From: a virus | IMG/VR virus record: IMGVR_UViG_3300043313_001220 | Coordinates: 30,375-94,374 of that record | Length of the DNA: 64,000 bases | Reading direction: 5' to 3' (one strand) | Shown: positions 1 to 64,000 of the stretch, in pieces | Numbering within the stretch: the first letter of the stretch is position 1 | Layout: each line of letters begins with the position of its first letter | Translations under genes and position numbers: made by a program | The notes under the pieces: generated by a model | Database searches by the model: none | Told to the model about the DNA's origin: nothing | Seen by the model: only the letters and a program-made list of their open reading frames with translations

Positions 1-548
1 TCGGTGTACTGGATGCCGGTCTGGCGGGTGATCGGGTTGCGCGGGAACGACTGGAGGATGCCGGACGGCTCCAGGACCGCCTCGATCTTCTTCGTGTCCG
101 CGCTGCGCTGGCCGACAAACAGCTTGTCCTCCAGCACGACGATGTGCTCGGCGATGAACGACAGCGTCCCCTTCTTGGTCGCGCCGTAACGCGCCGGGAG
201 GTTGTCGACGGCGCGGGCGACCGACGCGGCCTCCTTCAGAGCGGCCTTCAGATGACGGCCTTCGATGTACAGGCCGTCCTGCGGGTCGCGCTTGAAGCCG
301 TTCAGGTGGCGACGCTTGTCGACCTCCTTCAGCGCCTCATCCTCAGTGACACCGCGGGCGGCCATGACCTCGGCGACCGCCTGGGCGATGATGTCCTCCT
401 TGTCGAGGCCCATCTTGCTCTTCAGCCAGCCCTCGGCGACCTTCGGGTCGGACGGGGTGCCGCCCATCAGTCGCTCGATCTGGATCTCTCCGGCGAACCG
501 GAACGGGTAGACCCGGTTGATGTCAGCGGCGAACACATTCTTGGCCAT
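1..548 (-). CDS. Cas7/RAMP-like protein (partial, runs off left edge; absent from ORF track)
   Basis: Hand translation from ATG at 548: MAKNVFAADINRVYPFRFAGEIQIERLMGGTPSDPKVAEGWLKSK...HLNGFKRDPQDGLYIEGRHLKAALKEAASVAR...FIAEHIVVLEDKLFVG...TGIQYTE. FKRD..DGLYIEGRHLKAALKEAA resembles the Cas7/RAMP 'g.p.Ip.ss.KG.lR' strand-helix motif. RBS-like GAGAGGG and a strong promoter upstream. Confidence 0.7.
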   Translation of the reverse strand, partial: MAKNVFAADINRVYPFRFAGEIQIERLMGGTPSDPKVAEGWLKSKMGLDKEDIIAQAVAEVMAARGVTEDEALKEVDKRRHLNGFKRDPQDGLYIEGRHLKAALKEAASVARAVDNLPARYGATKKGTLSFIAEHIVVLEDKLFVGQRSADTKKIEAVLEPSGILQSFPRNPITRQTGIQYT

Positions 549-591: not shown

Positions 592-620
592 AGCATATCC
601 CGTGGCACATGGGGTGTCAA
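592..620 (-). promoter_or_regulatory. Sigma70/HrdB-type promoter for the Cas7-like gene with overlapping operator
   Basis: Minus strand TTGACA-N17-TATGCT; plus strand TGGCAC-N5-GTGTCA palindrome at 603-619. Confidence 0.8.
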
Positions 621-1480
621 GCAGTGTGTTGGTGGAGCCCAGCTCGGGCTAGCTGGCGCGGGTCGCCAACCCGCCAACGTGCGATCCGGCAGTAGTCGGC
701 GGACAGGTCGACCGAGATGCCGACACGTCCGAGGGCTTTCGCAGCCAGAGCTGTTGTGCCGCCCCCCCCCATCGGGTCCAGCACTACGCCGCCGGGCGGG
801 CACCAGCCCTCAATGATGGCGAGCGGCCACTCCAACGGAAACGCTGAATGGTGCCGCACCCCGAGATACTCCGGCACGCGCAACGCCGCCGACTTGACCG
901 CATGTACCGACCGCATTCCGGGAATGGATCGATCGGCCTTGCGGCTGGCATAATAATCGATTCGCTGGCTAAAGTGATACCAGGTCTCATGCGTGCGTGC
1001 CGCCCGGTCCCTGGCCGGATCGGGAACCGCGTTCGGCTTATCCCAGATCACCTCCGCCCGCAAGGTTAATCTGAGATCATCCACACATGCGATGGCGTAG
1101 CGCTGGGGCAGCTGGAGCAGGCTTTTAGGACTGCCGGTCGGTACGCACCGGTTGTTGTGGCCGATGCCCTGCTTGCTGTTTGTGCCCGAGATAGTGGTGC
1201 GCGTACCGCGGCCGTATTTGTCGCCCAGATTGACCCACAATGACCCGCGCGGTTTGAGTACCCGCAGCCACTCCCGCGTGCACCGGACCAGGCTGTCAAC
1301 ATATTCGCCGGGGGTGGGCTCGGCCCCGACCTGGCCTTCGTAGACCTCGCCGCCATCCTCATAAGCGCGCAGCGACCAATATGGCGGGCTGGTGATGATC
1401 AAATCCACCGAGCCGGTGGTCAGGGGCAACGCACCCGCGTCACCCCTGACCACCAACGCCGATCCGGTCAACGGGCGCAC
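617..1480 (-). CDS. DNA methyltransferase, N6_N4_Mtase beta class (SPPY suggests N4-cytosine)
   Basis: IITSPPY catalytic motif; VLDPMGGGGTT SAM-binding motif; H.AFP motif. Confidence 0.92.
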   Translation of the reverse strand: MRPLTGSALVVRGDAGALPLTTGSVDLIITSPPYWSLRAYEDGGEVYEGQVGAEPTPGEYVDSLVRCTREWLRVLKPRGSLWVNLGDKYGRGTRTTISGTNSKQGIGHNNRCVPTGSPKSLLQLPQRYAIACVDDLRLTLRAEVIWDKPNAVPDPARDRAARTHETWYHFSQRIDYYASRKADRSIPGMRSVHAVKSAALRVPEYLGVRHHSAFPLEWPLAIIEGWCPPGGVVLDPMGGGGTTALAAKALGRVGISVDLSADYCRIARWRVGDPRQLARAGLHQHTA

Positions 1481-2901: not shown

Positions 2902-3502
2902 GCTGACGCTCCCGCTTCCTTTTCGTGTGGCTTTTGATGTCGTCACGCCCACACGCTCGACAGACGCGGTGACCGCGATAGATCCTCGTGTTCGTCTCAT
3001 TCCAGGGGTGCCCCCTGGCGCAGTGCCCCTTGCGACGCCTGTTGCTAACTTGCACGCTGGCCGTAGCCCAGCGGCAGTTGTTGGGGCCATATCCGAGATC
3101 GTTGTTGATCCGGTCCAGCGACAGGTGGGGTGCGGGCCGCCGCCCCATGTCCACCAGGAAGGCCGAGAACCGCCCCCACCGGAGGCACACCGATATGCCG
3201 CGCCCCCCGTAGTTGTGGTAGTTCTTGTTCGTTGGGTTGGTACAGCGGTCCAGCATGGACCACCACGCGCGGTATTCGGGTGTTCCCCACATGCCGGCAC
3301 GCGAGCCACGTTCGATAGCCAGCTCGTCATGCAGACACCCGCACGATTGTGTCACCCCCCAGCTACGACACAGAAGTAGACGCTCGGCCCCACAGTCGCA
3401 TCGACACGCAATGCGGGGCTCATCGTTGTAGCGCGGTTTGGTCACCACCAAGCGACCAAACCGCACTCCCACCTCGTGAGTGACCACGACCCCTCGACTC
3501 AT
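2888..3502 (-). CDS. HNH homing endonuclease
   Basis: EYRAWWSMLDRC...YGGRGISVC.RW..F...DMG...SLDRINND.GY.PNNCRWAT. Confidence 0.88.
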   Translation of the reverse strand: MSRGVVVTHEVGVRFGRLVVTKPRYNDEPRIACRCDCGAERLLLCRSWGVTQSCGCLHDELAIERGSRAGMWGTPEYRAWWSMLDRCTNPTNKNYHNYGGRGISVCLRWGRFSAFLVDMGRRPAPHLSLDRINNDLGYGPNNCRWATASVQVSNRRRKGHCARGHPWNETNTRIYRGHRVCRACGRDDIKSHTKRKRERQHELV

Positions 3503-4845
3503 CGCAGTTTGGCCGCCAATGCCTGCATCTGTGCGACGGTGGCCAGCTGCCGGTCGACCCTGAACTCTTCGTGCAGCATCCGGTCGATGTCGGCGGTTTT
3601 AAGCTTTTTCATCCCCGCCGCCCCAAGCAGCTGCATCATCGCATCCTTGCGCGCCTGTGGGTCGTCGGTGGCCGCGATCTGCTCCTCCGGCTCACCGTCC
3701 TCCCACGGCGCGCTGACCGCCGGCAGGGTCGTCGACGCCTCTGGAGTGGCCTCCGGGTCAGCGGGAGGGTCGAGCAGGGCCTCGGATTCCCCCGGGTCCT
3801 CCTGCCAAGCTTCCTGGACATCCAGGCGGGCGTCACGGGCCTTCTTCGTATCGATCCGGGCCTGCGCCCGCTGGGCCTCCGACTCCTGCGTGCGCTGGGC
3901 GGTCAGCACCTGCTGGCGGGCCTGCCAGGCGTCGATCAGCTGCTGGTGGTCGCCGGTCTCCTTGATCCTCTTGCGGATCCCAGCCATCTCCGCGTTGGTC
4001 GTGGCCTTCGCGATCGCCTCCAGCGCCTTCGGGATGTTGGGGGCGGGAGGCACGGGGGGCACGGGGGGCACGGGAGGCACGGGAGGCACGGTGGCCGGAG
4101 CCGCCTCGATTGCCGTGGCGCGGGAGGGTTCGATGGCCGCCCGCATGGCAGCAGCCTGCTGGTCGCGGCCAAGCTGCAACACGGTGCTGACCGCGTCTGA
4201 GCCGACCTGCACCGTTCGGGAGGTCACCCCGTCTAACAACAGGATCGGCACGTTGTAATCTTTGGTGACCACTTTTCTCTCTTTGCGGTCGTATTGGCGG
4301 GACTCGCGGTTCTCCAGCAACAAGCGGGCGGGCAACGGCATGCGGATGCCCGCGATCATGTCGAACAGCTGGACCATCTCGCCGGCCGCATAATACCCAT
4401 GGGTCTCAAGCCCCCACACACCCAGGCCCGGCACGTCGGCCAAAAGCAAATCGACCCGGGTGGTCGGCTTACATCTCCGAGTTTCCGGGTCGCAGTCACA
4501 AGTGTCCCCATAGATCTGGTCCTGAACGCCGTCACAGCGGCGGCTGCACACGCCACCCGACCACAGCTCGTATGTCGGGTCAACAATCTGGGGAGGGATG
4601 AAGACTGGAATCAGCGCCGCATCGGTCACCACCTGCCACTGCTTGCCCCGGGGGGCGTCCGCCCATACCTCCATCTCTCCACCGTAGAGCGCTGCCACCT
4701 CTTCCACGAGGTGCTGGGCCGCACTTGTAAAGCGCAGAGTATCCAACCGGCTGGGCCGTTCCTTGCCCGAGCTGGTCTTGACCTTGCGGCCCAGCCGGAT
4801 GCGGCCCACCCGTACTGAGCGGATCTGGAGGTCTCGAATGGCCAT
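3499..4845 (-). CDS. recombination directionality factor-like (Gp3/RDF-like) recombination protein
   Basis: MAIRDLQ...VGRIRLG...PSRLDTLRFTS...CSRRCDG...CDC....CKPTTRV...GVWGLETHGYYAAGE pattern typical of actinophage RDF-like proteins; low-complexity C-terminus. Confidence 0.75.
   Translation of the reverse strand: MAIRDLQIRSVRVGRIRLGRKVKTSSGKERPSRLDTLRFTSAAQHLVEEVAALYGGEMEVWADAPRGKQWQVVTDAALIPVFIPPQIVDPTYELWSGGVCSRRCDGVQDQIYGDTCDCDPETRRCKPTTRVDLLLADVPGLGVWGLETHGYYAAGEMVQLFDMIAGIRMPLPARLLLENRESRQYDRKERKVVTKDYNVPILLLDGVTSRTVQVGSDAVSTVLQLGRDQQAAAMRAAIEPSRATAIEAAPATVPPVPPVPPVPPVPPAPNIPKALEAIAKATTNAEMAGIRKRIKETGDHQQLIDAWQARQQVLTAQRTQESEAQRAQARIDTKKARDARLDVQEAWQEDPGESEALLDPPADPEATPEASTTLPAVSAPWEDGEPEEQIAATDDPQARKDAMMQLLGAAGMKKLKTADIDRMLHEEFRVDRQLATVAQMQALAAKLR
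4045..4092 (-). repeat. 9-bp coding tandem repeat (PVPPVPPVPPVPP linker)
   Basis: GGCACGGG(G/A) repeated about 4 times. Confidence 0.8.
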
Positions 4846-5383
4846 CCCATTGCTCCTTCTTCTCGGTGTAGTCAATGAAGCGCTCCCGGTGGCGCTCAAA
4901 GCGCCCCAGGAGCCGATTGCAAGGTGTGCACAGGACGCCCCTGACGCACTTACCGCACGTGCGCTTACCCGGACAGCAGCTGTGATCGTGGTCGACCGGG
5001 AATCGCGGGGCCCCGGGTTCCCCGCTCGACATCTCGCCACAGATCGCACAGCCGCCACCCTGCGCGGCCAGCAACGCATCGTAGTCCTCGGGGGTCAGGC
5101 CATATCGCCTCAGTGTGATCCGCCGGCTGAGGGCCACCCGACGCTCTTGGTTCGTAATAGCCCACGCGCGCTGAGTGGCCGCCCTGCGCTCCGGGTTCGC
5201 GGCCCTCCATGCGCGGTTGGTGGCCGCTACGCGCTCCAGATTTGCGGTTGCCCATGCGCGGTGGGTGGCTGCGCGACATGCCCTACATTGGGACTCCAGC
5301 CCGTCCCGACCGGTCTTGCGCTTGGAAAACCCCCCGAGCCCCTTCGTCTCCCCGCACTTGCTACAGCGTTTCGTCTCTTCCAT
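4580..5383 (-). CDS. endonuclease VII-family HNH nuclease with N-terminal Zn finger
   Basis: KRCSKCGE...CRAC; YGLTPEDYDALLAAQGGGCAICG...VDHDH...VRGVLCTPCNRLLG. Confidence 0.88.
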   Translation of the reverse strand: MEETKRCSKCGETKGLGGFSKRKTGRDGLESQCRACRAATHRAWATANLERVAATNRAWRAANPERRAATQRAWAITNQERRVALSRRITLRRYGLTPEDYDALLAAQGGGCAICGEMSSGEPGAPRFPVDHDHSCCPGKRTCGKCVRGVLCTPCNRLLGRFERHRERFIDYTEKKEQWDGHSRPPDPLSTGGPHPAGPQGQDQLGQGTAQPVGYSALYKCGPAPRGRGGSALRWRDGGMGGRPPGQAVAGGDRCGADSSLHPSPDC

Positions 5384-5391
5384 CTTTCACC

Positions 5392-5757
5392 TCCTGGGGG
5401 GTCGTCGTGTGGAACGGGCCGGTTAGTCGTGTGGTCTGGGCCGGTGTCTGACGGCCTCGGAATGTCGGCGGGATTGGACGGTACTGGGTGGGCAAGTCGG
5501 GCGGCGTACGGGTTGGCAAGTCGATAAGAACGGATTCGCAGGGTCGTGCGGGCTGGGCGGACTTGTCCGGGGCTGGCATGTCGGCGCGGGAGGGGGGAGG
5601 GGGGGAATGTCGGGCTGTGCGGGTTCGCGGGCGGATGGCCGGGAATGTCGTACGGGCGGGCTGGGATTGCGACGGAGGGGCAAGTCGGTGCGGCGGGGTG
5701 TGGATGGGGAAGTCGGGTTGGGACGCACCGGTGGGGTTCGGGTTGTCGGGTTGGTCA
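5392..5757 (-). repeat. Non-coding pentamer-periodic array (CGAC anchor + NNNCC pentamers), about 13 units
   Basis: Minus strand reads TGAC..CGAC aaccc gaacc ccacc ggtgc gtccc aacc CGAC ttccc catcc acacc ccgcc gcac CGAC ttgcc cctcc gtcgc aatcc cagcc cgccc gta CGAC attcc...; fills the whole intergenic gap. Confidence 0.85.
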
Positions 5758-6123
5758 GCGCGTCGGCGGTTTGGTGAACGAACCGGAGATGTTAATCCCG
5801 TCCGCCAGGGCATCCAACAACAGGGTGAGTTTCAAGCTCGCGGCCATTCCCGCGTACATCGTGGCCCGGCGCTCGACGATGTTGATGCCGGCATTGTACT
5901 CTTTGAGCTTCGGGTCGTCACCGGCCCAGGAATAGGCGACCGATGCGGGGTCGACGGTCAGGTAGGGGGTGGCCTCGCCCTGCTGTGCGGCCTTCAGCTC
6001 GATCTGCTCAGTGCGCCGTCTGCTCCGCTCCCGGAGCTTGACCGACTCCTGCTCGTAGTGTGTGGCCAGCCGATCATATTCGACAGCCCACATCCGGGTG
6101 TCGTCGCGATCTGCGGGGGTCAT
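5755..6123 (-). CDS. hypothetical protein
   Basis: MTPADRDDTRMWAVEY... with GAGGAGG RBS. Confidence 0.65.
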   Translation of the reverse strand: MTPADRDDTRMWAVEYDRLATHYEQESVKLRERSRRRTEQIELKAAQQGEATPYLTVDPASVAYSWAGDDPKLKEYNAGINIVERRATMYAGMAASLKLTLLLDALADGINISGSFTKPPTR

Positions 6124-6196
6124 CTGGTCCTCCTCGGGGGGTACGTGGTGGGTGTTCTGACCATACCACGGGCCACACCACGTGGCAAGCAGCGTG

Positions 6197-18915: not shown

Positions 18916-20195
18916 CCACCACCATCCCCCGGGTCAAGCTCGCCCGGACCTACGCCGAGCTGCCGGCCTACCAGCCCGGTCACTGGCTCGTGGCCGGGAC
19001 TCCCGGATGGCTGCCGTACCCCTGCACCTGCTGGTACGACAATTGCAGCTACCCGAAGTGCCCGGACCGGGGGCGGCCGGAGGGAGACGCCCTGCCACCG
19101 GGATGCTGCGGGAGACGCCCTGTCGTGGCCGGGGAGCGCGCAGAAGCCCCCGCCCGGGGTTCGAATACCCGCAAGGGCCGTTCGTCAACGTGGAAGGCCA
19201 CGGAGAGCCCCAGGCGCAGCACCCGCCCGGCGGATCTGCCACAGCGAGCGGTGGGTGGTTCGTCCTCGGTGGCCGGGGATCTGTGGGCGGCCCCGTGGGA
19301 TGCCGAGCCCGCCCCGTGGGATCTGGACGAGCCGGATCCCGGCCTGGGTGGCCCCGACGACCGGTCTCCCGTGGCCACGGAGACACCGAAGCCGGCTCCC
19401 GGGCATTCGAATGGGGATGCGGCCTCTCGTCAACATTCCGAGCCAAGCGACGGACTTTACCCGCACGGCGAACGTCAACGATCGCAGGTCGAACACTGTG
19501 CCTGTGTCACACCCTGGGACCCGCCGCCGCCGGTCCTCTTGGTGGCCGACGCCAAGACGGGTCCGGTCCGGGCCGCGATCGCCCTCGACCTGCGCGGCCC
19601 GGCCGGTGACCAGCCACGGCAGGACCCCCGCGACCTCGCCGAGAAGCTCCTGGCGGAGCGCGGCTACGGCCTGAAAGGCGGCTGGAAGGACGGGCGGCAC
19701 ACGCTGCTGCTGCCGGAGGGCAAGCTCAAGACCCGTCCTGGTTTCCTGGCCGAAGCATTCAACACCGCCTCCGGCCTGCGAGAGAGCGCTCTCGCGGTGA
19801 TCGACACACCGCCGGAGCAGGCCGGGGGGGTTCATTGTCCGGACTGCCACAAGGACTGGCAGAGCGCGGGTGCCTACGGGATGCACCGCAGGAAGGGCAA
19901 CGGGATTGATTGGCCTCGATGGGCCGAGCGCTGTGTGGACCCCGCGACGATCCGGGTCGTCCCCCGAAGTGCTGGCGCTAGCGCCAGCATATCACGCCGA
20001 TCAAGCCCCGGGCAATATGATGGAGCACCACTGTTGAAGCGCGGACCGAACGGCGTCTGGCATCTGGACCCGCTCGCCCCGTGGGGTCCCGGAGGCCCGC
20101 CGTTCAGCCCCGGGAAGGCGATGGAGATCTATGAACGGGGGCGGCGGGAGCTGAAACGTTGGCATTTCGGGAAGGGCCACAACCGCGAGCGCTGA
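18912..20195 (+). CDS. hypothetical protein with Cys clusters
   Basis: 427 aa coupled ORF; CPDC..HRR zinc-finger-like segment. Confidence 0.6.
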   Translation: MTTTIPRVKLARTYAELPAYQPGHWLVAGTPGWLPYPCTCWYDNCSYPKCPDRGRPEGDALPPGCCGRRPVVAGERAEAPARGSNTRKGRSSTWKATESPRRSTRPADLPQRAVGGSSSVAGDLWAAPWDAEPAPWDLDEPDPGLGGPDDRSPVATETPKPAPGHSNGDAASRQHSEPSDGLYPHGERQRSQVEHCACVTPWDPPPPVLLVADAKTGPVRAAIALDLRGPAGDQPRQDPRDLAEKLLAERGYGLKGGWKDGRHTLLLPEGKLKTRPGFLAEAFNTASGLRESALAVIDTPPEQAGGVHCPDCHKDWQSAGAYGMHRRKGNGIDWPRWAERCVDPATIRVVPRSAGASASISRRSSPGQYDGAPLLKRGPNGVWHLDPLAPWGPGGPPFSPGKAMEIYERGRRELKRWHFGKGHNRER

Positions 20196-20203
20196 CACGC
20201 CGC

Positions 20204-20232
20204 TTGCCACGCCCGGTGGCGTGTGGCAGGAT
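20204..20232 (+). promoter_or_regulatory. Candidate promoter driving the large array
   Basis: TTGCCA-N17-CAGGAT just upstream of the first unit; operator-like TGCCAC-N5-GTGGCG. Confidence 0.55.
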
Positions 20233-20236
20233 AGGG

Positions 20237-21484
20237 GGACAAACCAGGCCAGTGCGCCTCCCGACTAGCCAGTTCGTACCACACGACAAGCCTGCCCCCC
20301 TCGCATCCGCTGCACACCGACAAGTCGTGCCGCCGCAAGCCCAGCCCACCCCCCGCTCGCCGACACATCTAGCCGTACCACACGACAAGCCTGCCCAGTG
20401 CAATGCCGCCCAGCCTTGACGACACCCCAGACCGACATATGCCCGACTGTTCACATCCACCCTACCGCCGTCCGACACCGCACGCCACACCCTCGCGCTC
20501 CGTACGACCAACCTCTCCGAATCTTGCCGACGCGCACGACATGCCGCTCTCGACACCGCCCGACCCGCACCGACACAGCACGCCGGTCCGACCCAACCGA
20601 CACGCCCGGCCACCGCAGGACTCACGACAGATCTGCCCAGCGCTCACCCATGCGACTACCCGTCCCACAGCTGGTCGGCCCCTACCCCGACACCCGACAT
20701 GGCCCATCTGTCCCAGCCGCCCGACATGCCATCCCAGCCGAGTCCTCCCCGACACTCCACCCTCAGCCGCAACGCCCCGAGACGACAGATCTGTTCCGCC
20801 CACCCCATGTGACTACCCTGCCCGGCCCTGCTCCAATATCGACTACCCGACGCAACCCCAGAGCCCCCGCTGACATATCCAGCCCGCCCGCCCCAGGCGA
20901 CCAGCCACCCCAGCTCCTGTGTCGACAACCCGATCGGCGTCACGCCAGACCCAACCCGACGACAGCCCAGACCCGCACTGTCTTACCCCGTGCTCGGACC
21001 GCCCATCCCACCCGACAAGCCCACCCGGGCCGGTACAACCCCAGCCGTGCCCCACCCCCCGACTACCCTACACACCCCAGTGCGGATCCGACACGCCATC
21101 TCATCGCACCGCCGCCGACTACCCCGGCCCTTCGTGCCCTGTCTCCGACGACCCGTGCCATCCGACAAGCCCAGCCGCGCCGATGCAACCCCACTGCGAC
21201 CATCCATCCCGCGTCATTGCGGGCCCGACACGCCATCCCTGGCATCCCCGACCCGGTACCGACAAGCCCAGCCGCCGCGCTTCATATCGACAAGCCGACC
21301 CACGCCACCCCGTGTCCTCTCCCGGCCCGTCCGACAGTGCGTCCCCACGCCGCCCAGTGGCTTCCCCACCCATCCCCCATGGCACGCCCGATCAAAGCGG
21401 CGTACTGACGAGCCCGTCCCCACCCGGCCCCCCGACAAGCCGAGCGAACTCCAACCCAGCCCCTACGACAACCCGCTGGACCGA
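20237..21484 (+). repeat. Large non-coding pentamer-periodic array (about 40 units), candidate guide-RNA array
   Basis: CGAC followed by aagcc/taccc/atgcc/acgcc then 2-8 NNNCC-like pentamers, e.g. CGAC aagcc caccc gggcc ggtac aaccc cagcc gtgcc ccacc ccc CGAC. Confidence 0.88.
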
Positions 21485-21498
21485 TAGGGAAGAGAGAT

Positions 21499-22965
21499 AT
21501 GGACAGGCGATACGAGAGTGCCGATGTCACAGCGATCTGGAGCGACCAGGGCCGCAACCTGGTCGAACGCAGCATCTGGGTCGAGGTGATGCGAGCCCAG
21601 CGCGAAGCCGGAATCGACATCCCGGAAGACCAGATCGACGCGTACGCCGACCTGGCAGCCAGCCAGGCACTGCTGGACCCGGACCACGAGGAAGCCCTGC
21701 TCGAAACGCAGGACATCGCCGAGCTGGAGAGAGAGACCAAACATGACCTGTACGCCCGACTGCGGTGGTTCAACGAGAGTGTCGGAGGCGACCACGCCCA
21801 CCGCGGGTTGACCTCGGCCGACATCACCGAGAACACCCAGCAGATCCAGATCGTCGCCTCCGCCGAACTGCTGCTAGAACACGCTGAGCAGGTCCTGCGC
21901 CGGATGTACGAGCGTGCCGGGGTGTTCGCCACGGTGCCGATCGTCGCCCGCACCCATGGCCGACCCGCGCAGCTGACCACCATTGGCAAGCGGATCACCG
22001 ACTGGATGCAGGAGCTGATGGGGGCGATGGTCACTCTCCAGGGGGCCATCGAAGGTTACGTGCCGCGGGGGATCAAAGGCGCGGTCGGCACCAGTGCCGA
22101 CATGGCGCGGACGTTGCTGTCCGGCCTGCCGGAGGGCAGCCCCGCCAGCAGGTGGGTGGCCGCCCGCCTGGCCGCCGGCACGCTGGACGACCGGGTGTCG
22201 TCCAAGCTGGCAGGCGAGACCACATCGATGCTGTCGACCGGGCAGTGTTACCCACGCTCGGCCGACCTGCCGATCATCTCCGCGACGTTGCAGCTCGCCG
22301 CCGCGTGCGGCACGGTCGCCACTGCCGTGCGGCTGATGTCCGCGCTCGGCCTGGCGGTCGAGAACCCCGACGCGCATGTCGGGTCGTCGGCCATGCCCCA
22401 CAAGAGCAACCCGCGCTACAGCGAGCGGGTCTGCAGCCTCCAGGTGGTCGCACGCGGGTATGCGGGAATGTTGCAGGAGACCGCCGGCACGCAGTGGCTG
22501 GAAGGTGACGTGTCGACCTCTGCGGCCCGCCGGATCGCCCTGCCGGGGCTATTCCACACGGTGGATTCGATGCTGGCCAACACCGCCTGGGTGTTGGACC
22601 ATCTGGTGTTCGACCTGGAGGCGATCAAGGACGAGCGCGACCTGTGGATGCCGGAGATGGCATCCGGCGCGCTGTTGGCCGCACTGGTCGAGAACGGGGT
22701 GCCACGTCAGAAGGCACACGAGGTACTGCGGCACCATTATCGGCAGATCGGCGGCCCGGACTGCGAGAGCGACCGATCGGGGACGCTGATCTACCACCTG
22801 ACCAGTGAAGACGCAGAGTTCCGGCTGACTGCGGAGCAGACCCAGGCCGCGTTCGACCCGGAGATGTTGGTTGGTTCTGCGGTGGCGATCGTGGAGGCTG
22901 TGGTCGGTGCGGAGCTCGGCGAGCTGCTGGATGCCGACCCGGAATGGCCTGGCGACCTGGTGTGA
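21499..22965 (+). CDS. purB: adenylosuccinate lyase
   Basis: TKHD, HRGLTSADI, ARTHGRPAQLTT.GKR, KGAVGT, GSSAMPHKSNP signature. Confidence 0.93.
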   Translation: MDRRYESADVTAIWSDQGRNLVERSIWVEVMRAQREAGIDIPEDQIDAYADLAASQALLDPDHEEALLETQDIAELERETKHDLYARLRWFNESVGGDHAHRGLTSADITENTQQIQIVASAELLLEHAEQVLRRMYERAGVFATVPIVARTHGRPAQLTTIGKRITDWMQELMGAMVTLQGAIEGYVPRGIKGAVGTSADMARTLLSGLPEGSPASRWVAARLAAGTLDDRVSSKLAGETTSMLSTGQCYPRSADLPIISATLQLAAACGTVATAVRLMSALGLAVENPDAHVGSSAMPHKSNPRYSERVCSLQVVARGYAGMLQETAGTQWLEGDVSTSAARRIALPGLFHTVDSMLANTAWVLDHLVFDLEAIKDERDLWMPEMASGALLAALVENGVPRQKAHEVLRHHYRQIGGPDCESDRSGTLIYHLTSEDAEFRLTAEQTQAAFDPEMLVGSAVAIVEAVVGAELGELLDADPEWPGDLV

Positions 22966-24066: not shown

Positions 24067-26319
24067 GTGGCCGAGAGCAACCAGACGACCAGCATCGACC
24101 ATGTTGAAAGTCCCAGGGTGGAGCCGCCCGGGGATGTGCGACTCCAGCTCGCGGCACTCGAAGGGTGGGCCAACAACCGGGCCATGCAACCCGAGATGCG
24201 GCTGCGTGCCGCGCTCCAGGCCCTCGCCCTGTGGCGCAAGCTCTACCCGGACCCCGAGGGGGACTGACATGGCACAGCGCTGGGCGGTACTTCGCCCGAA
24301 TGAGGACGGCCAGCACTTCCGGATGATCCGCGACGCCTCCATGTACCACATATTGGGCCACCCGGAGGAGTACGGCATTGGGAGATTTGCGGCGTTGGAT
24401 GAGCTGGACCCAGACCCGGCGGTCTGGGAGCCTGGCACCGCTGTCCTGCTGCGGGTCGAGGTCGTGGTCCCGGAGGCCGCTGGCGGCTACAAGCTCCCGG
24501 AGGACGCCGAATGAACCCGCGCCACACCCCCGAGTCGCTGCGCGCCCACAGCGCGGCCACCCTCAAGCTGGCCGAGTCTCACCTGAACGCGTCGAGCGAG
24601 GCATACCGCAAACGCTCCAGCATCCGCGGCGTGACGTTGGGCCCGGCCACCCACGACGCGCTTGCTGAGGCGTACCAGGCGTGGCGTGAATACCGGGCCG
24701 ACACCGCCCCGCCTGGGTGTCAGGATCTCATGATCCCTGAGCGTCAACCCGACGGCAGCGCGCCGGGGCTCACCCGCGTACACGGCTACGACGTCACCAT
24801 CGGCGATGTTGACGGTGGCATCGCCTGGGATATCGGCCCCGAGCCGCTGGTCCCCTTCGTATTCAGGGAGGTTGTCGAATGAGCGAGCTCGACGAGCCGC
24901 AAGACCCGCTGCTGGTCCAGCTGCACGACGCCCGGCTGGACCAGCAGGATGCCCACACCGAGGCCGTCCGCCTGATCCGCCATCTGTACGTCGACCTCGG
25001 CCAGGACGCGGGCGGTCCGCTGCACGTGGTCCTGGACGATGGCAATGTCGGCGACTTCTGGCTGCACGCGGGGCCGCACACCGATGGCTACGACCGCTAC
25101 GGCTATCTGTTCAACGGCGACTTCGCGCGTTGGTCGCAAGCCGGGGACGACGTCTCCCTAAAGCGCCGGAACGCCATCCGCGACACCTGCGAGCAGATCC
25201 TCGCCCTGCTACGCCCGATGTCCGAGCAGCATCGCCGCGACGCGATCAACGAGTTCTGGAAAGGATGGCGACCGTGAGCGGCATCCCGGCGGAGCCCACC
25301 TCGGCACAGTGCGACGCCAAGGAGCGCGTCTCAATCCCCGGGTCGACGGCCGTCGCCCATGCGGTCTGGTGGCCGCAGATGGGTGGCAAGCCCGGTAAGG
25401 CCGTAGCGACGATCGGGGACTGCTCGACGGTCTGGCTATGGCATGACGGACAGCTGCCGCTCAACGGGAGGGAACCCCGCCAGATCCACCTGTGTGGCTA
25501 TGGCGAGTGGATCGAGACGTTTGAATGGCTCAAATCGCGATATGAGCAGGAGTTTGACGAGGAGCCGGAGCCGTACGTCTGGGTCCTGCCGCAGGGGGTG
25601 ACCCGCGAGCAGGCGCAGGAGGTCTACGAGAAGATCGTCGCCTGGGGTCTGTGGGAGGTCGACCCGGGCGGGTTCCGGATCCGGACCTACGAAGAGGCGC
25701 ACGGGCCCTGCGAGCCAATCCCATGTCCGCCGTTCCAGGAGATCACCCTGCAAGCCTCGGCAGAGCGCATGGGACCGGCCCCGATCGACCAGAATCTGGC
25801 CATGCCTGCGAAGCTGGACAGCGAGTGGATGGACAGCTGGATGGGCGTGGTGAGCGCTGCCACAGCGGCAGGTTTCCTCCAGATCGACCTTCTACCCGCG
25901 CCCGGACCGGCGCAGATGCCCCGAATCATCACCCTGCCCGAGGGTGTCAACGCGGAGGAGGCCGACCGCTGGGTCCAAGGCTGCATCCAGCTCGGGATTA
26001 TCGAAGCCGGCACTGGCGGTGTGCTCTACCTCCCCCACGGGCAGCAGTTGTGAGGGCGCGCAATGTCGCTATCGCCGCGGCGATCGCCCTGGTCTTGGCC
26101 GGTGTCTGCTTCCTGATCCCCCCCAGCCCGCTCTACCCAGACGGGTCCGACCCGAACCCCGCCCCGACCCTACCGGCCTCTACTACGGTCGAGTACGTCC
26201 CGGTCGAGGGCAAGCTGGTGGTCTGTGTCTTCCGCTCCAACTACGGCATCTCCTGCGACTGGGCGAACGCCCGGCCGCTCGACGCCGGCACGACAGCCCA
26301 CGCCGTTCCGCCCAACTGA
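24067..26319 (+). other. Run of small coupled hypothetical genes (24067-24267, 24269-24514, 24511-24882, 24879-25277, 25274-26053, 26050-26319)
   Basis: ATGA/GTGA stop-start overlaps; no recognisable motifs. Confidence 0.6.
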
Positions 26320-26425
26320 CAATCCGCCCCATGCCTTCCACGATCCGCCCGACAGTGCGTCTCGACCCTGATCCACGCGTGCTACTGTTCAACCTCACGC
26401 TTCCCCTCCCATCCCGGACGACAGG
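26317..26425 (+). repeat. Mini pentamer-periodic array, about 2-3 units
   Basis: TGAC aatcc gcccc atgcc ttcca cgatc cgcc CGAC agtgc gtctc gaccc tgatc cacgc...ccctc ccatc ccgga CGAC aggagacac ATG. Confidence 0.7.
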
Positions 26426-63720: not shown

Positions 63721-64000
63721 TGCTGGTAACTCTCCATCTGGCTGAGGGCCAGACCGCCAAGCAGCTGATCGGTGAGGTCACCCGACTGGCCGGGGGTGCG
63801 CGTCCGCGTAGCGTCTCCGGTCGTTTCGGGGTCCTGGTCGATGCGGAGCTGGCGTACCGCTACCTCGCGGCCCGTTACGTACCGCCACCGGCTCCGATGC
63901 CGGTCCGGGAGTTGGCGTCTCCCCCTCCGACGCCAGCGGTGCCCGTCTCCGCGCCAGCGGTGCCCGTCTCCGCGCCAGCGGTGCCCGTCTCCGCGCCAGC
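63720..64000 (+). CDS. hypothetical protein, partial
   Basis: ATG overlaps upstream TGA; open to window end. Confidence 0.5.
   Translation, partial: MLVTLHLAEGQTAKQLIGEVTRLAGGARPRSVSGRFGVLVDAELAYRYLAARYVPPPAPMPVRELASPPPTPAVPVSAPAVPVSAPAVPVSAP
63933..64000 (+). repeat. 21-bp coding tandem repeat
   Basis: GCCAGCGGTGCCCGTCTCCGC x3 or more. Confidence 0.85.

What the first reader, a model, noticed from the sequence alone, without database searches (positions are those of the whole stretch)
20237..21484. Large non-CRISPR array with 5-nt periodicity: candidate guide-RNA locus for a Cas7-like protein
Seen in sequence: 1.25 kb between two genes has no credible CDS. It parses into about 40 units, each starting (C/T)GAC and followed by 2-8 pentamers that mostly end in CC or C while the first 2-3 bases vary (e.g. 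CGAC aagcc caccc gggcc ggtac aaccc cagcc gtgcc ccacc). On the opposite strand this reads GG(Y/N)-NN repeated. There is no fixed long repeat with unique spacers, so it is not CRISPR, and it is not a simple satellite. A TTGCCA-N17-CAGGAT promoter sits just upstream, which suggests the C-rich strand is transcribed. One 23-bp block is duplicated (20275-20297 and 20374-20396). Inference: each pentamer is a footprint for one subunit of a Cas7-like filament (gene at 1-548), with constant bases binding protein and variable bases forming a discontinuous targeting code, and CGAC marking processing boundaries. From recall, and needing verification, this resembles reported viral RAMP plus GGY-NN repeat (VIPR-type) systems, but here it is C-rich in the gene-sense direction and punctuated by CGAC.
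Basis: partly seen in the sequence, partly recalled or inferred. Interest (0 to 1): 0.95.

Follow-up and report, generated by a model that had tools for sequence, protein, structure and literature searches.

The report
Phage VIPR guide array, C-anchored variant
The 1.25-kb C-rich tract is a real non-coding array of about 50 short units written in five-base steps; it is best read as the largest guide-RNA array of a VIPR system (a CRISPR-related, phage-borne RNA-guided DNA silencer first described in 2026), in a divergent branch whose fixed letter is C rather than the published G-G-pyrimidine.

Summary
Window 20237-21484 is 48% C and 20% G, with 46 CGAC against 3 GTCG. Counted from each CGAC it runs in pentamers NNN-y-C (C 81% at position 5; chi-square p 9e-30). 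Its 336-aa ORF has no relative. The "Cas7-like" gene is real. It encodes a 248-aa protein whose model (pLDDT 93) matches Cas7/Csm3 (Z 10.9). Its family profile matches the SUSP1 Vipr family (hhalign 94.5%, E 8e-8).

The phage is a 94-kb 2-aminoadenine (Z-genome) virus. It carries at least three more arrays of the same grammar, one starting one base after the RAMP stop codon. In 16 of 16 related loci such arrays lie beside the RAMP gene, always C-rich on its sense strand.

So this is a VIPR-type system (bioRxiv 10.64898/2026.04.26.720920). It differs from the characterised type in six ways:
- the fixed letter is C on the gene-sense strand
- three letters per step vary
- units are short, bounded by CGAC, and have no 3' tail
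- the G-reading G-loop residues are replaced
- no vap homologue was found
- the arrays are scattered over 27 kb

The transcribed strand, the reading rule and the targets are unproven. This scan's earlier follow-up reports describe the same clade on other genomes. Verdict: new variant of a known kind.

The parts
20237..21484 (+). Array A, the finding itself. It has 46 CGAC and 4 TGAC anchors, each followed by in-phase pentamers NNN-y-C. It fills the whole gap between two co-directional genes, from 42 nt after the stop at 20195 to the ribosome-binding site of the PurB-like gene at 21499.
1..548 (-). First 182 codons of the 248-aa Vipr-like Cas7-fold RAMP gene (P0001). The whole gene is genome 30176-30922; its G-loop GIGASRSQGYGRY lies just outside the window.
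592..620 (-). Sigma-70-like promoter TTGACA-N17-TATGCT (10 of 12), 44 nt upstream of the RAMP start. It would drive the RAMP gene and then Array B.
5407..5765 (-). Array C: 12 CGAC-anchored units of the same grammar (C 90% at pentamer position 5). It sits between two minus-strand genes and ends at the ribosome-binding site of the next gene.
6160..6188 (-). Promoter-like site TTGCCA-N17-TATGGT (9 of 12), about 420 nt upstream of Array C and in the C-rich sense.
9766..9866 (-). Mini-array D: three CGAC-anchored units in a minus-sense intergenic gap.
20206..20234 (+). The hexamers are present, but the second is weak (3 of 6) and the site overlaps a GC-rich hairpin. Its promoter status is open.
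20960..21012 (+). Longest clean unit (9 pentamers). Taking pentamer positions 2-3 and skipping one target base gives GCN GAN GCN GTN ACN GTN CGN CGN AT. This has two exact in-frame matches in large serine recombinase genes, but a control pattern did as well, so it is only a weak lead.
26291..26421 (+). Possible mini-array E (3-4 CGAC units with a looser register); tentative.

Best explanation
Window 20237-21484 is the largest of at least four guide arrays of a VIPR-type system in a complete 94-kb Z-genome phage. The effector is the 248-aa single-RRM Cas7-like RAMP encoded 20 kb away. Shown: the RAMP fold; its profile homology to the Vipr family; the pentamer grammar; and the fact that array and RAMP gene occur together, with the same strand polarity, in every related locus examined. 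Inferred: each array is transcribed with its flanking genes as a C-rich, poorly structured RNA. CGAC plus a semi-constant first pentamer (W-N-S-C-C) acts as the anchor that sets the register, and perhaps as a cutting site. One RAMP subunit holds the fixed (Y)C of each pentamer with a re-tooled G-loop (A-S/T in place of the D-W that reads the two G's in SUSP1 Vipr). The variable letters are presented for gapped pairing with DNA of rival mobile elements, which are then silenced, as shown experimentally for the SUSP1 system.
For: RAMP protein:
- The AF2 model has pLDDT 92.8.
- Foldseek's top hits are type VII Cas7 and Csm3, E 2e-8.
- VIA-align gives Z 10.9, and the top 22 chains are all Cas7-type RAMPs.
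- hhalign of 79 homologues against 38 SUSP1-Vipr homologues gives 94.5%, E 7.8e-8, over 130 columns from helix 1 to the G-loop.

Array grammar:
- The same grammar occurs at genome 30175-29750 (Array B, starting 1 nt after the RAMP stop), at window 5407-5765 and at window 9766-9866.

Co-occurrence and polarity:
- All 16 related loci have such arrays next to the RAMP gene: 6 downstream, 10 upstream. They come from a Microcystis phage, IMG/VR and metagenome contigs, and Streptomyces, Nocardiopsis, Streptosporangium, Actinomadura and other genomes.
- In all 16 the array is C-rich on the RAMP sense strand; none is on the other strand. C at position 5 is 61-91%.
- In SUSP1 the guides are also co-oriented with vipr.

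Transcription context:
- Arrays A, B and C each fill a gap between co-directional genes.
- B and C have sigma-70-like promoters upstream in the C-rich sense.

Other support:
- The C-rich strand folds weakly: -29 kcal per 150 nt, against -60.5 for the G-rich strand and -59.7 for genome tiles.
- SUSP1 residues D177 and W178, which read G1 and G2, are A (71 of 79) and S/T in this family, while R179 is invariant in both.
- No CRISPR array and no canonical GGYNN run of 5 or more occur in the genome.
Against:
- The published VIPR text lists NNNGG and NNNNG repeats as alternative consensus. That is what these arrays read on the opposite strand, so the authors may already hold this clade as G-strand guides.
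- Many units have only 4-6 pentamers, too few variable letters for specific targeting of a genome.
- No target was found under 11 reading rules in the phage's own genome.
- Skip-0 BLAST against 50,697 phages found nothing.
- Exact gapped scans of IMG/VR gave no result above a control.
- The roughly 180-aa partner gene conserved in 6 related loci has no homologue here.
- Array A lies 20 kb from the RAMP gene.
- The N-terminal third of the protein did not align with Vipr.
Confidence: 0.6

Rival explanations
1. It is the same VIPR-type system, but the functional RNA is the G-rich antisense strand: 5'-(G-R-NNN)n-GTCG-3'. That would be the published 'NNNGG/NNNNG' alternative vrRNA, with GTCG as a minimal 3' end, transcribed against the flanking genes.
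For: The published classification lists NNNGG, YNNNG and NNNNG repeats for some types. All experimentally characterised vrRNAs are G-based with a 3' element that follows the repeats. Read on the G strand, the register here is anchored at the 3' end.
Against: It would require antisense transcription in 17 of 17 loci, including 10 where the array fills the gap between an upstream gene and the RAMP start. No promoter-like site was found for that direction at arrays A-C. The residues that read G1 and G2 in SUSP1 Vipr are replaced. There is no pyrimidine preference after the G's: position 3 is 48% purine on the C strand. The G strand folds as strongly as average genome sequence.
Confidence: 0.25
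2. The arrays act as DNA, not RNA. They would be iterated protein-binding sites (CGAC iterons) for replication, partition, packaging or transcription control, or single-stranded DNA bound by the RAMP.
For: CGAC is repeated in one orientation at 20-35 bp spacing. Array A lies 2 kb from a primase-polymerase/D5-type helicase gene. Replication origins with one-way iterons are known for P4-type primase-helicases (general knowledge).
Against: Double-stranded binding sites do not need 48% C on one strand or a five-base phase that restarts at each anchor. The arrays track the RAMP gene and its strand across unrelated genomes, including chromosomal loci with no phage replication genes nearby. RAMPs are RNA-binding folds.
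Confidence: 0.05
3. The tract is a C-rich, G-poor untranslated spacer with a general RNA-level role (for example a Rho-loading or anti-termination tract), or a compositional by-product unrelated to the RAMP.
For: C-rich, G-poor, unstructured RNA is the known signature of Rho utilisation sites (general knowledge). The tract lies inside operon-like gene strings.
Against: Rho sites have no five-base register and no CGAC anchors. The co-occurrence with one protein family in 16 of 16 loci is not explained.
Confidence: 0.04
4. The region encodes a proline-rich protein (the 336-aa ORF at 20398-21408).
For: The frame is open for 336 codons.
Against: No relative at E <= 0.001 in 5.8 billion proteins. 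The periodicity is 5, not 3. Open frames are expected in stop-poor C-rich DNA. The same grammar occurs in arrays without long ORFs.
Confidence: 0.01

Closest known systems
VIPR type II system of Escherichia phage SUSP1: Vipr + vap1 + four vrRNAs (bioRxiv 10.64898/2026.04.26.720920 and 10.64898/2026.04.26.720927; PDB sequence entry 36pp)
   Same: Both are phage-borne and have a lone small single-RRM RAMP with a G-loop. The protein families are profile-homologous (94.5%). There is no CRISPR array. The non-coding arrays have five-base steps with fixed and hypervariable letters and are co-oriented with the RAMP gene, upstream or downstream of it.
   Different: - The fixed letters are (Y)C on the gene-sense strand, not G-G-Y.
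- Three letters per step vary, not two.
- Units have 2-10 steps bounded by CGAC, not 9-16 steps followed by a structured invariant 3' tail of roughly 40 nt.
- There are about 80 units in 4-5 arrays spread over 27 kb, not 4 guides.
- D177, W178 and R138 are not conserved.
- The protein carries an inserted three-helix segment at residues 35-79 of the model and is 248 aa long against 195.
- No vap homologue was found.
Non-canonical VIPR arrays and 'staggered' arrays mentioned in the preprints: NNNGG/YNNNG/NNNNG repeats (10.64898/2026.04.26.720920), and GAC/NN, CAC/NN, WGT/NN and TGH/NN clusters (10.64898/2026.10.21.760802)
   Same: They have five-base periodicity with a non-GGY fixed part next to a Vipr-like fold. 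Staggered arrays have guides that abut without spacers.
   Different: The accessible text names no C-anchored NNNYC unit, no CGAC punctuation and no sense-strand C-rich polarity. The non-canonical clusters are described as about 10 repeats with three fixed letters. The figures and data tables were not available, so I could not check whether this clade is already included.
Cas7 backbone subunits of class 1 CRISPR effectors (type VII Cas7, Csm3, Cmr4, Csf2)
   Same: They are the best structural matches (Z 9-10.9). They share the RRM core, the G-loop before the last strand and a thumb-like hairpin. They polymerise on RNA with a fixed footprint, starting from a 5' handle (general knowledge).
   Different: Their footprint is 6 nt on a contiguous spacer, not 5 nt with fixed letters in every step. 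They need Cas5, Cas6 and large subunits plus CRISPR repeats, none of which were seen here.

Membership tests
VIPR system | Vipr protein: a small single-RRM RAMP with G-loop and thumb, homologous to the Vipr clade | tested here: met
   hhalign of A1 against A2: 94.5%, E 7.8e-8, 130 columns. Model pLDDT 92.8 with a Cas7 fold, Z 10.9. The N-terminal third did not align.
VIPR system | Tandem five-base repeats with fixed and hypervariable positions in non-coding DNA next to the vipr gene | tested here: met
   Array B starts 1 nt after the RAMP stop. All 16 related loci have such arrays.
VIPR system | Repeat consensus GGY/NN, or the published variants NNNGG, YNNNG, NNNNG, on the guide RNA | tested here: inconclusive
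   On the gene-sense strand the fixed letters are (Y)C. Only the antisense strand reads G(R)NNN. The transcribed strand is unknown. There are no GGYNN runs of 5 or more in the genome.
VIPR system | vrRNA architecture: 9-16 repeats followed by an invariant structured 3' tail (type II) | tested here: not met
   Units have 2-10 pentamers, are bounded by the 4-nt CGAC and have no tail. The C strand is predicted to be nearly unstructured.
VIPR system | Residues that read the two guanines (SUSP1 D177, W178, R138) | tested here: not met
   The aligned positions are A219 (71 of 79), S/T220 and T/E182. R179 corresponds to invariant R221.
VIPR system | Adjacent accessory (vap) gene | tested here: inconclusive
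   A roughly 180-aa partner conserved upstream in 6 related loci has no match in this genome (best HMM E-value 2.8). The neighbours here are a DNA methylase and a 197-aa gene with no Pfam hit. A different vap is not excluded.
VIPR system | No CRISPR array in the genome | tested here: met
   The only 20-mers present three or more times are the 21-bp terminal repeats.
VIPR system | No other cas genes | not tested
   About 20 of roughly 110 proteins were scanned against Pfam or PHROGs. None was Cas-like. The rest were not scanned.
VIPR system | Guides are expressed, bound by Vipr, and direct DNA binding by the one-base-skip rule | not testable with these tools
Gapped target searches gave nothing above control.
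CRISPR-Cas | Identical direct repeats of 20-40 bp alternating with unique spacers | tested here: not met

The most novel reading that the evidence does not exclude
This large RAMP clade (more than 1,000 homologues, found in actinobacterial phages and prophages and in a cyanophage) would use a second, distinct filament code. The guides would be sense-strand, C-rich RNAs with only one or two fixed letters per five-base step, read by a re-tooled G-loop. Each step would carry three programmable letters. The guides would be very short and cut or registered at CGAC, so a single phage could carry about 80 of them in arrays scattered through its early genes. In this Z-genome phage, replacement of A by 2-aminoadenine in its own DNA could additionally separate self from target.
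Probability: 0.4. Interest if true: 0.75.

Novelty: new variant of a known kind. Interest (0 to 1): 0.55.

Why it matters
VIPR was described only in 2026, and its mechanism is known for one G-based type. A widespread branch that fixes C instead of G-G-Y would show that the RAMP-filament code is itself evolvable. That conclusion would rest on the changed base-reading residues, the three free letters per step and the much shorter, far more numerous guides. Such a branch would give a second code for programmable DNA recognition. It would also put the system in high-GC actinophages, including one with a 2-aminoadenine genome. For this window, the result explains 1.25 kb of otherwise unannotatable DNA and links it to a gene 20 kb away.

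Tried and rejected
- Rfam on the region (E up to 1) and on the whole window: nothing in the array.
- TRF: only two trivial 10-mers.
- blastn of the array against 50,697 phages: no match.
- Single-sequence AF2: unusable, pLDDT 34.
- phmmer and a profile of the family against PDB sequences: no Vipr hit, although SUSP1 Vipr itself is there as 36pp.
As a result I obtained no DNA of the closest relatives and no RNA evidence.
- Self-targeting: 11 reading rules (positions 1-2, 2-3, 1-3 or 1-2-3 with target spacing 2-5) gave no excess over order-shuffled guides in the 94-kb genome.
- Skip-0 concatenations of the six longest units against the phage collection: no match.
- Exact gapped IMG/VR scans: the unit at 21332 gave 0 hits under both rules.
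- The unit at 21013 gave 10 scattered hits in mixed frames, consistent with chance.
- The unit at 20960 gave 2 in-frame hits at the AEAVTVRRI motif of large serine recombinases. However, the same dinucleotides in reverse order gave 5 hits (2 distinct), also in frame in real proteins.
- For the same unit, 401 actinobacterial genomes gave 13 heterogeneous near-matches against 4 for the control, in TetR helix-turn-helix regions, PdxT and others. The recombinase target is therefore not established.
- A codon-composition likelihood test of which pentamer positions are read gave no signal.
- The sliding period-5 power spectrum misses the arrays because the phase restarts at every CGAC.

Full report
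WHAT IS THERE. The window is bases 30375-94374 of a 94,374-bp virus record with terminal repeats, rated complete. It has 67% G+C. It carries a PurZ-type adenylosuccinate synthetase, a dUTPase/dCTP-deaminase-like gene, a primase-polymerase/D5-type helicase and a PurB-like lyase. It is therefore a 2-aminoadenine (Z-genome) phage, most likely of a high-GC host.

The finding's region (20237-21484) fills the whole gap between a 427-aa gene ending at 20195 and the PurB-like gene starting at 21499.

- The region is 48% C and 20% G, with 46 CGAC against 3 GTCG.
- C autocorrelates at lag 5 at about 6 SD above shuffles.
- When each unit is counted from its CGAC, position 5 of every pentamer is C in 81% of cases. 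Position 4 is C in 60% (pyrimidine 77%). Positions 1-3 are close to maximally variable, at about 1.9 bits each. Chi-square over phases gives p = 9e-30.
- The register is set by the CGAC on the 5' side of the C-rich strand (0.133 against 0.022 bits). The slack sits at the end of each unit.
- The first pentamer after CGAC is more constrained (W-N-S-C-C).
- The exact 23-bp duplicate is real.
- The 336-aa ORF has no relative anywhere.
- TRF, Rfam and a CRISPR-style k-mer check find nothing.
- The proposed promoter hexamers exist, but the second is weak and the site overlaps a GC hairpin.

THE PROTEIN. The gene at window 1-548 (minus strand) runs off the window. From the whole genome it is 248 aa. 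It has over 1,000 homologues and no Pfam family.

With a 79-sequence alignment AlphaFold gives pLDDT 92.8. Foldseek's best hits are type VII Cas7 and Csm3 at E 2e-8. An independent all-against-all alignment gives Z 10.9, and its 22 best chains are all Cas7-type RAMPs.

I recovered SUSP1 Vipr from the phage's GenBank record. Its D177-W178-R179 matches the numbering in the structural preprint, and its sequence is PDB entry 36pp. A profile of its 38 homologues matches the profile of this family at 94.5% probability, E 7.8e-8, over 130 columns from RRM helix 1 to the G-loop. The gene is thus a divergent Vipr homologue.

MORE ARRAYS, AND A FAMILY-WIDE RULE. The same grammar occurs at three further sites:
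- Genome 30175-29750, minus strand (Array B, 17 anchors). It starts one base after the RAMP stop codon and lies outside the window.
- Window 5407-5765, minus strand (Array C, 12 anchors).
- Window 9766-9866, minus strand (Array D, 3 units).
- A possible fifth array lies at window 26291-26421.

Each array fills a gap between co-directional genes, with the C-rich strand as the sense strand. B and C have sigma-70-like promoters upstream in that sense.

I fetched 16 loci encoding relatives of the RAMP at 28-86% identity. They comprise Microcystis phage Mae-JY09, IMG/VR and metagenome contigs, and genomes of Streptomyces, Streptacidiphilus, Nocardiopsis, Streptosporangium, Actinomadura and several MAGs. 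Every one has a cluster of [CT]GAC-(NNNNC)n units next to the gene, downstream in 6 and upstream in 10. Every cluster is on the RAMP sense strand and none is on the other strand. C at position 5 is 61-91%, and CGAC far outnumbers GTCG in each.

WHAT IT IS. VIPR systems are real. They pair a lone ancestral RAMP (Vipr) with vrRNAs of 9-16 GGY/NN pentamers plus a 3' tail. One protomer binds per repeat, and the NN letters pair with DNA while every third target base is skipped, which silences rival phages and satellites. The published text also mentions seven types, alternative repeats (NNNGG, YNNNG, NNNNG), staggered arrays without spacers, and non-canonical fixed trinucleotides.

The locus here meets the core definition: a Vipr-homologous RAMP, adjacent five-base arrays and no CRISPR. 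It departs from the characterised type in six respects:
1. The fixed letter is C on the strand that is co-oriented with the RAMP gene, whereas SUSP1 guides are G-rich on the co-oriented strand.
2. Three letters per step vary, not two.
3. Units are short (2-10 steps), abut each other, are bounded by CGAC and have no tail.
4. The residues that read G1 and G2 in SUSP1 (D177, W178, R138) are A, S/T and T/E here, while R179 stays invariant.
5. The roughly 180-aa partner gene found upstream in six related loci is absent from this phage.
6. About 80 units lie in 4-5 arrays spread over 27 kb, the largest 20 kb from the effector gene.

WHICH STRAND. There are no RNA data, so this is inference. Five points favour the C-rich sense strand:
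- The polarity is the same in 17 of 17 loci, including arrays wedged between an upstream gene and the RAMP start.
- Promoters lie upstream of B and C in that sense.
- No promoter-like site was found for the other direction.
- The C strand has low predicted structure, -29 against -60.5 kcal per 150 nt.
- The G-reading residues are lost.

Two points favour the G-rich strand. Every characterised vrRNA is G-based, and the published 'NNNGG/NNNNG' variants are what these arrays read in reverse. I put about 60% on the C strand and 25% on the G strand.

TARGETS. None is established.
- Eleven reading rules gave no excess of near-matches in the phage's own genome.
- Skip-0 BLAST gave nothing.
- Four exact gapped scans of IMG/VR gave one attractive result. 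The 9-step unit at 20960, read as positions 2-3 plus one skipped base, matches two large serine recombinase genes in codon register at the motif AEAVTVRRI, with different wobble bases.
- A control made of the same dinucleotides in reverse order also hit two different real proteins in frame.
- Near-matches in 401 actinobacterial genomes were heterogeneous.

I therefore report the recombinase match only as a lead. A codon-composition test could not choose a reading rule either.

STANDING. The kind of system is known from 2026 preprints. This branch looks like a distinct variant.

Earlier follow-up reports of this scan, on other genomes, reached the same reading: a C-anchored VIPR clade. I tested that claim here independently, on this genome and on 16 loci. 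First-reader notes on this genome had already flagged Arrays B and C, and I confirmed both.

Noticed in passing
window 10803-10909 (+): Rfam tRNA model match (46 bits) spanning 107 nt, much longer than a tRNA. ARAGORN calls no tRNA anywhere in the window. This fits earlier first-reader notes of tRNA-like RNAs with enlarged anticodon arms.
   Followed up: partly
window 11644-15551 and 21499-22965: Z-genome (2-aminoadenine) module: a PurZ-type adenylosuccinate synthetase (PHROG 1211), a dUTPase/dCTP-deaminase-like protein fused to a nucleoside deoxyribosyltransferase-like N-terminus, and a PurB-like lyase immediately after Array A.
   Followed up: partly
genome 1-63 and 94306-94368 (outside the window and at its very end, window about 63932-63994): A 21-bp unit (GCCAGCGGTGCCCGTCTCCGC) is repeated three times in tandem at both ends of the record, inside the terminal repeat.
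   Followed up: no
window 617-1480 (-): N6/N4 DNA methyltransferase gene directly upstream of the RAMP promoter. It ends about where the TTGACA hexamer begins.
   Followed up: no
window 3499-5079 (-): A 526-aa protein with a Gp3-like domain (recombination directionality factor of serine integrases) lies just downstream of Array C. Of note, one guide loosely resembles a serine recombinase motif.
   Followed up: no
L012, L014, L017, L019, L020, L021 (about 550-1,000 bases upstream of the RAMP gene): A conserved helical protein of roughly 180 aa sits upstream of the array and RAMP gene on the same strand in six actinobacterial loci. It is a likely accessory (vap-like) gene of this clade and is missing from the phage studied here.
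   Followed up: partly
genome 30130-30170 (just outside the window) and window 20207-20230: A GC-rich hairpin without a T-run precedes Array B (GGGGGCGGG...CCCGCCCCC) and Array A (GCCACGCC...GGCGTGTGGC). Similar hairpins follow the RAMP gene in L005 and L010. They may be a processing or attenuation element.
   Followed up: no
L005 1900-6600 and L010 3700-5521: Distant relatives (28-29% identity) carry very large arrays of the same grammar (127 and 50 CGAC anchors) with an ACGAC anchor and only position 5 fixed.
   Followed up: partly
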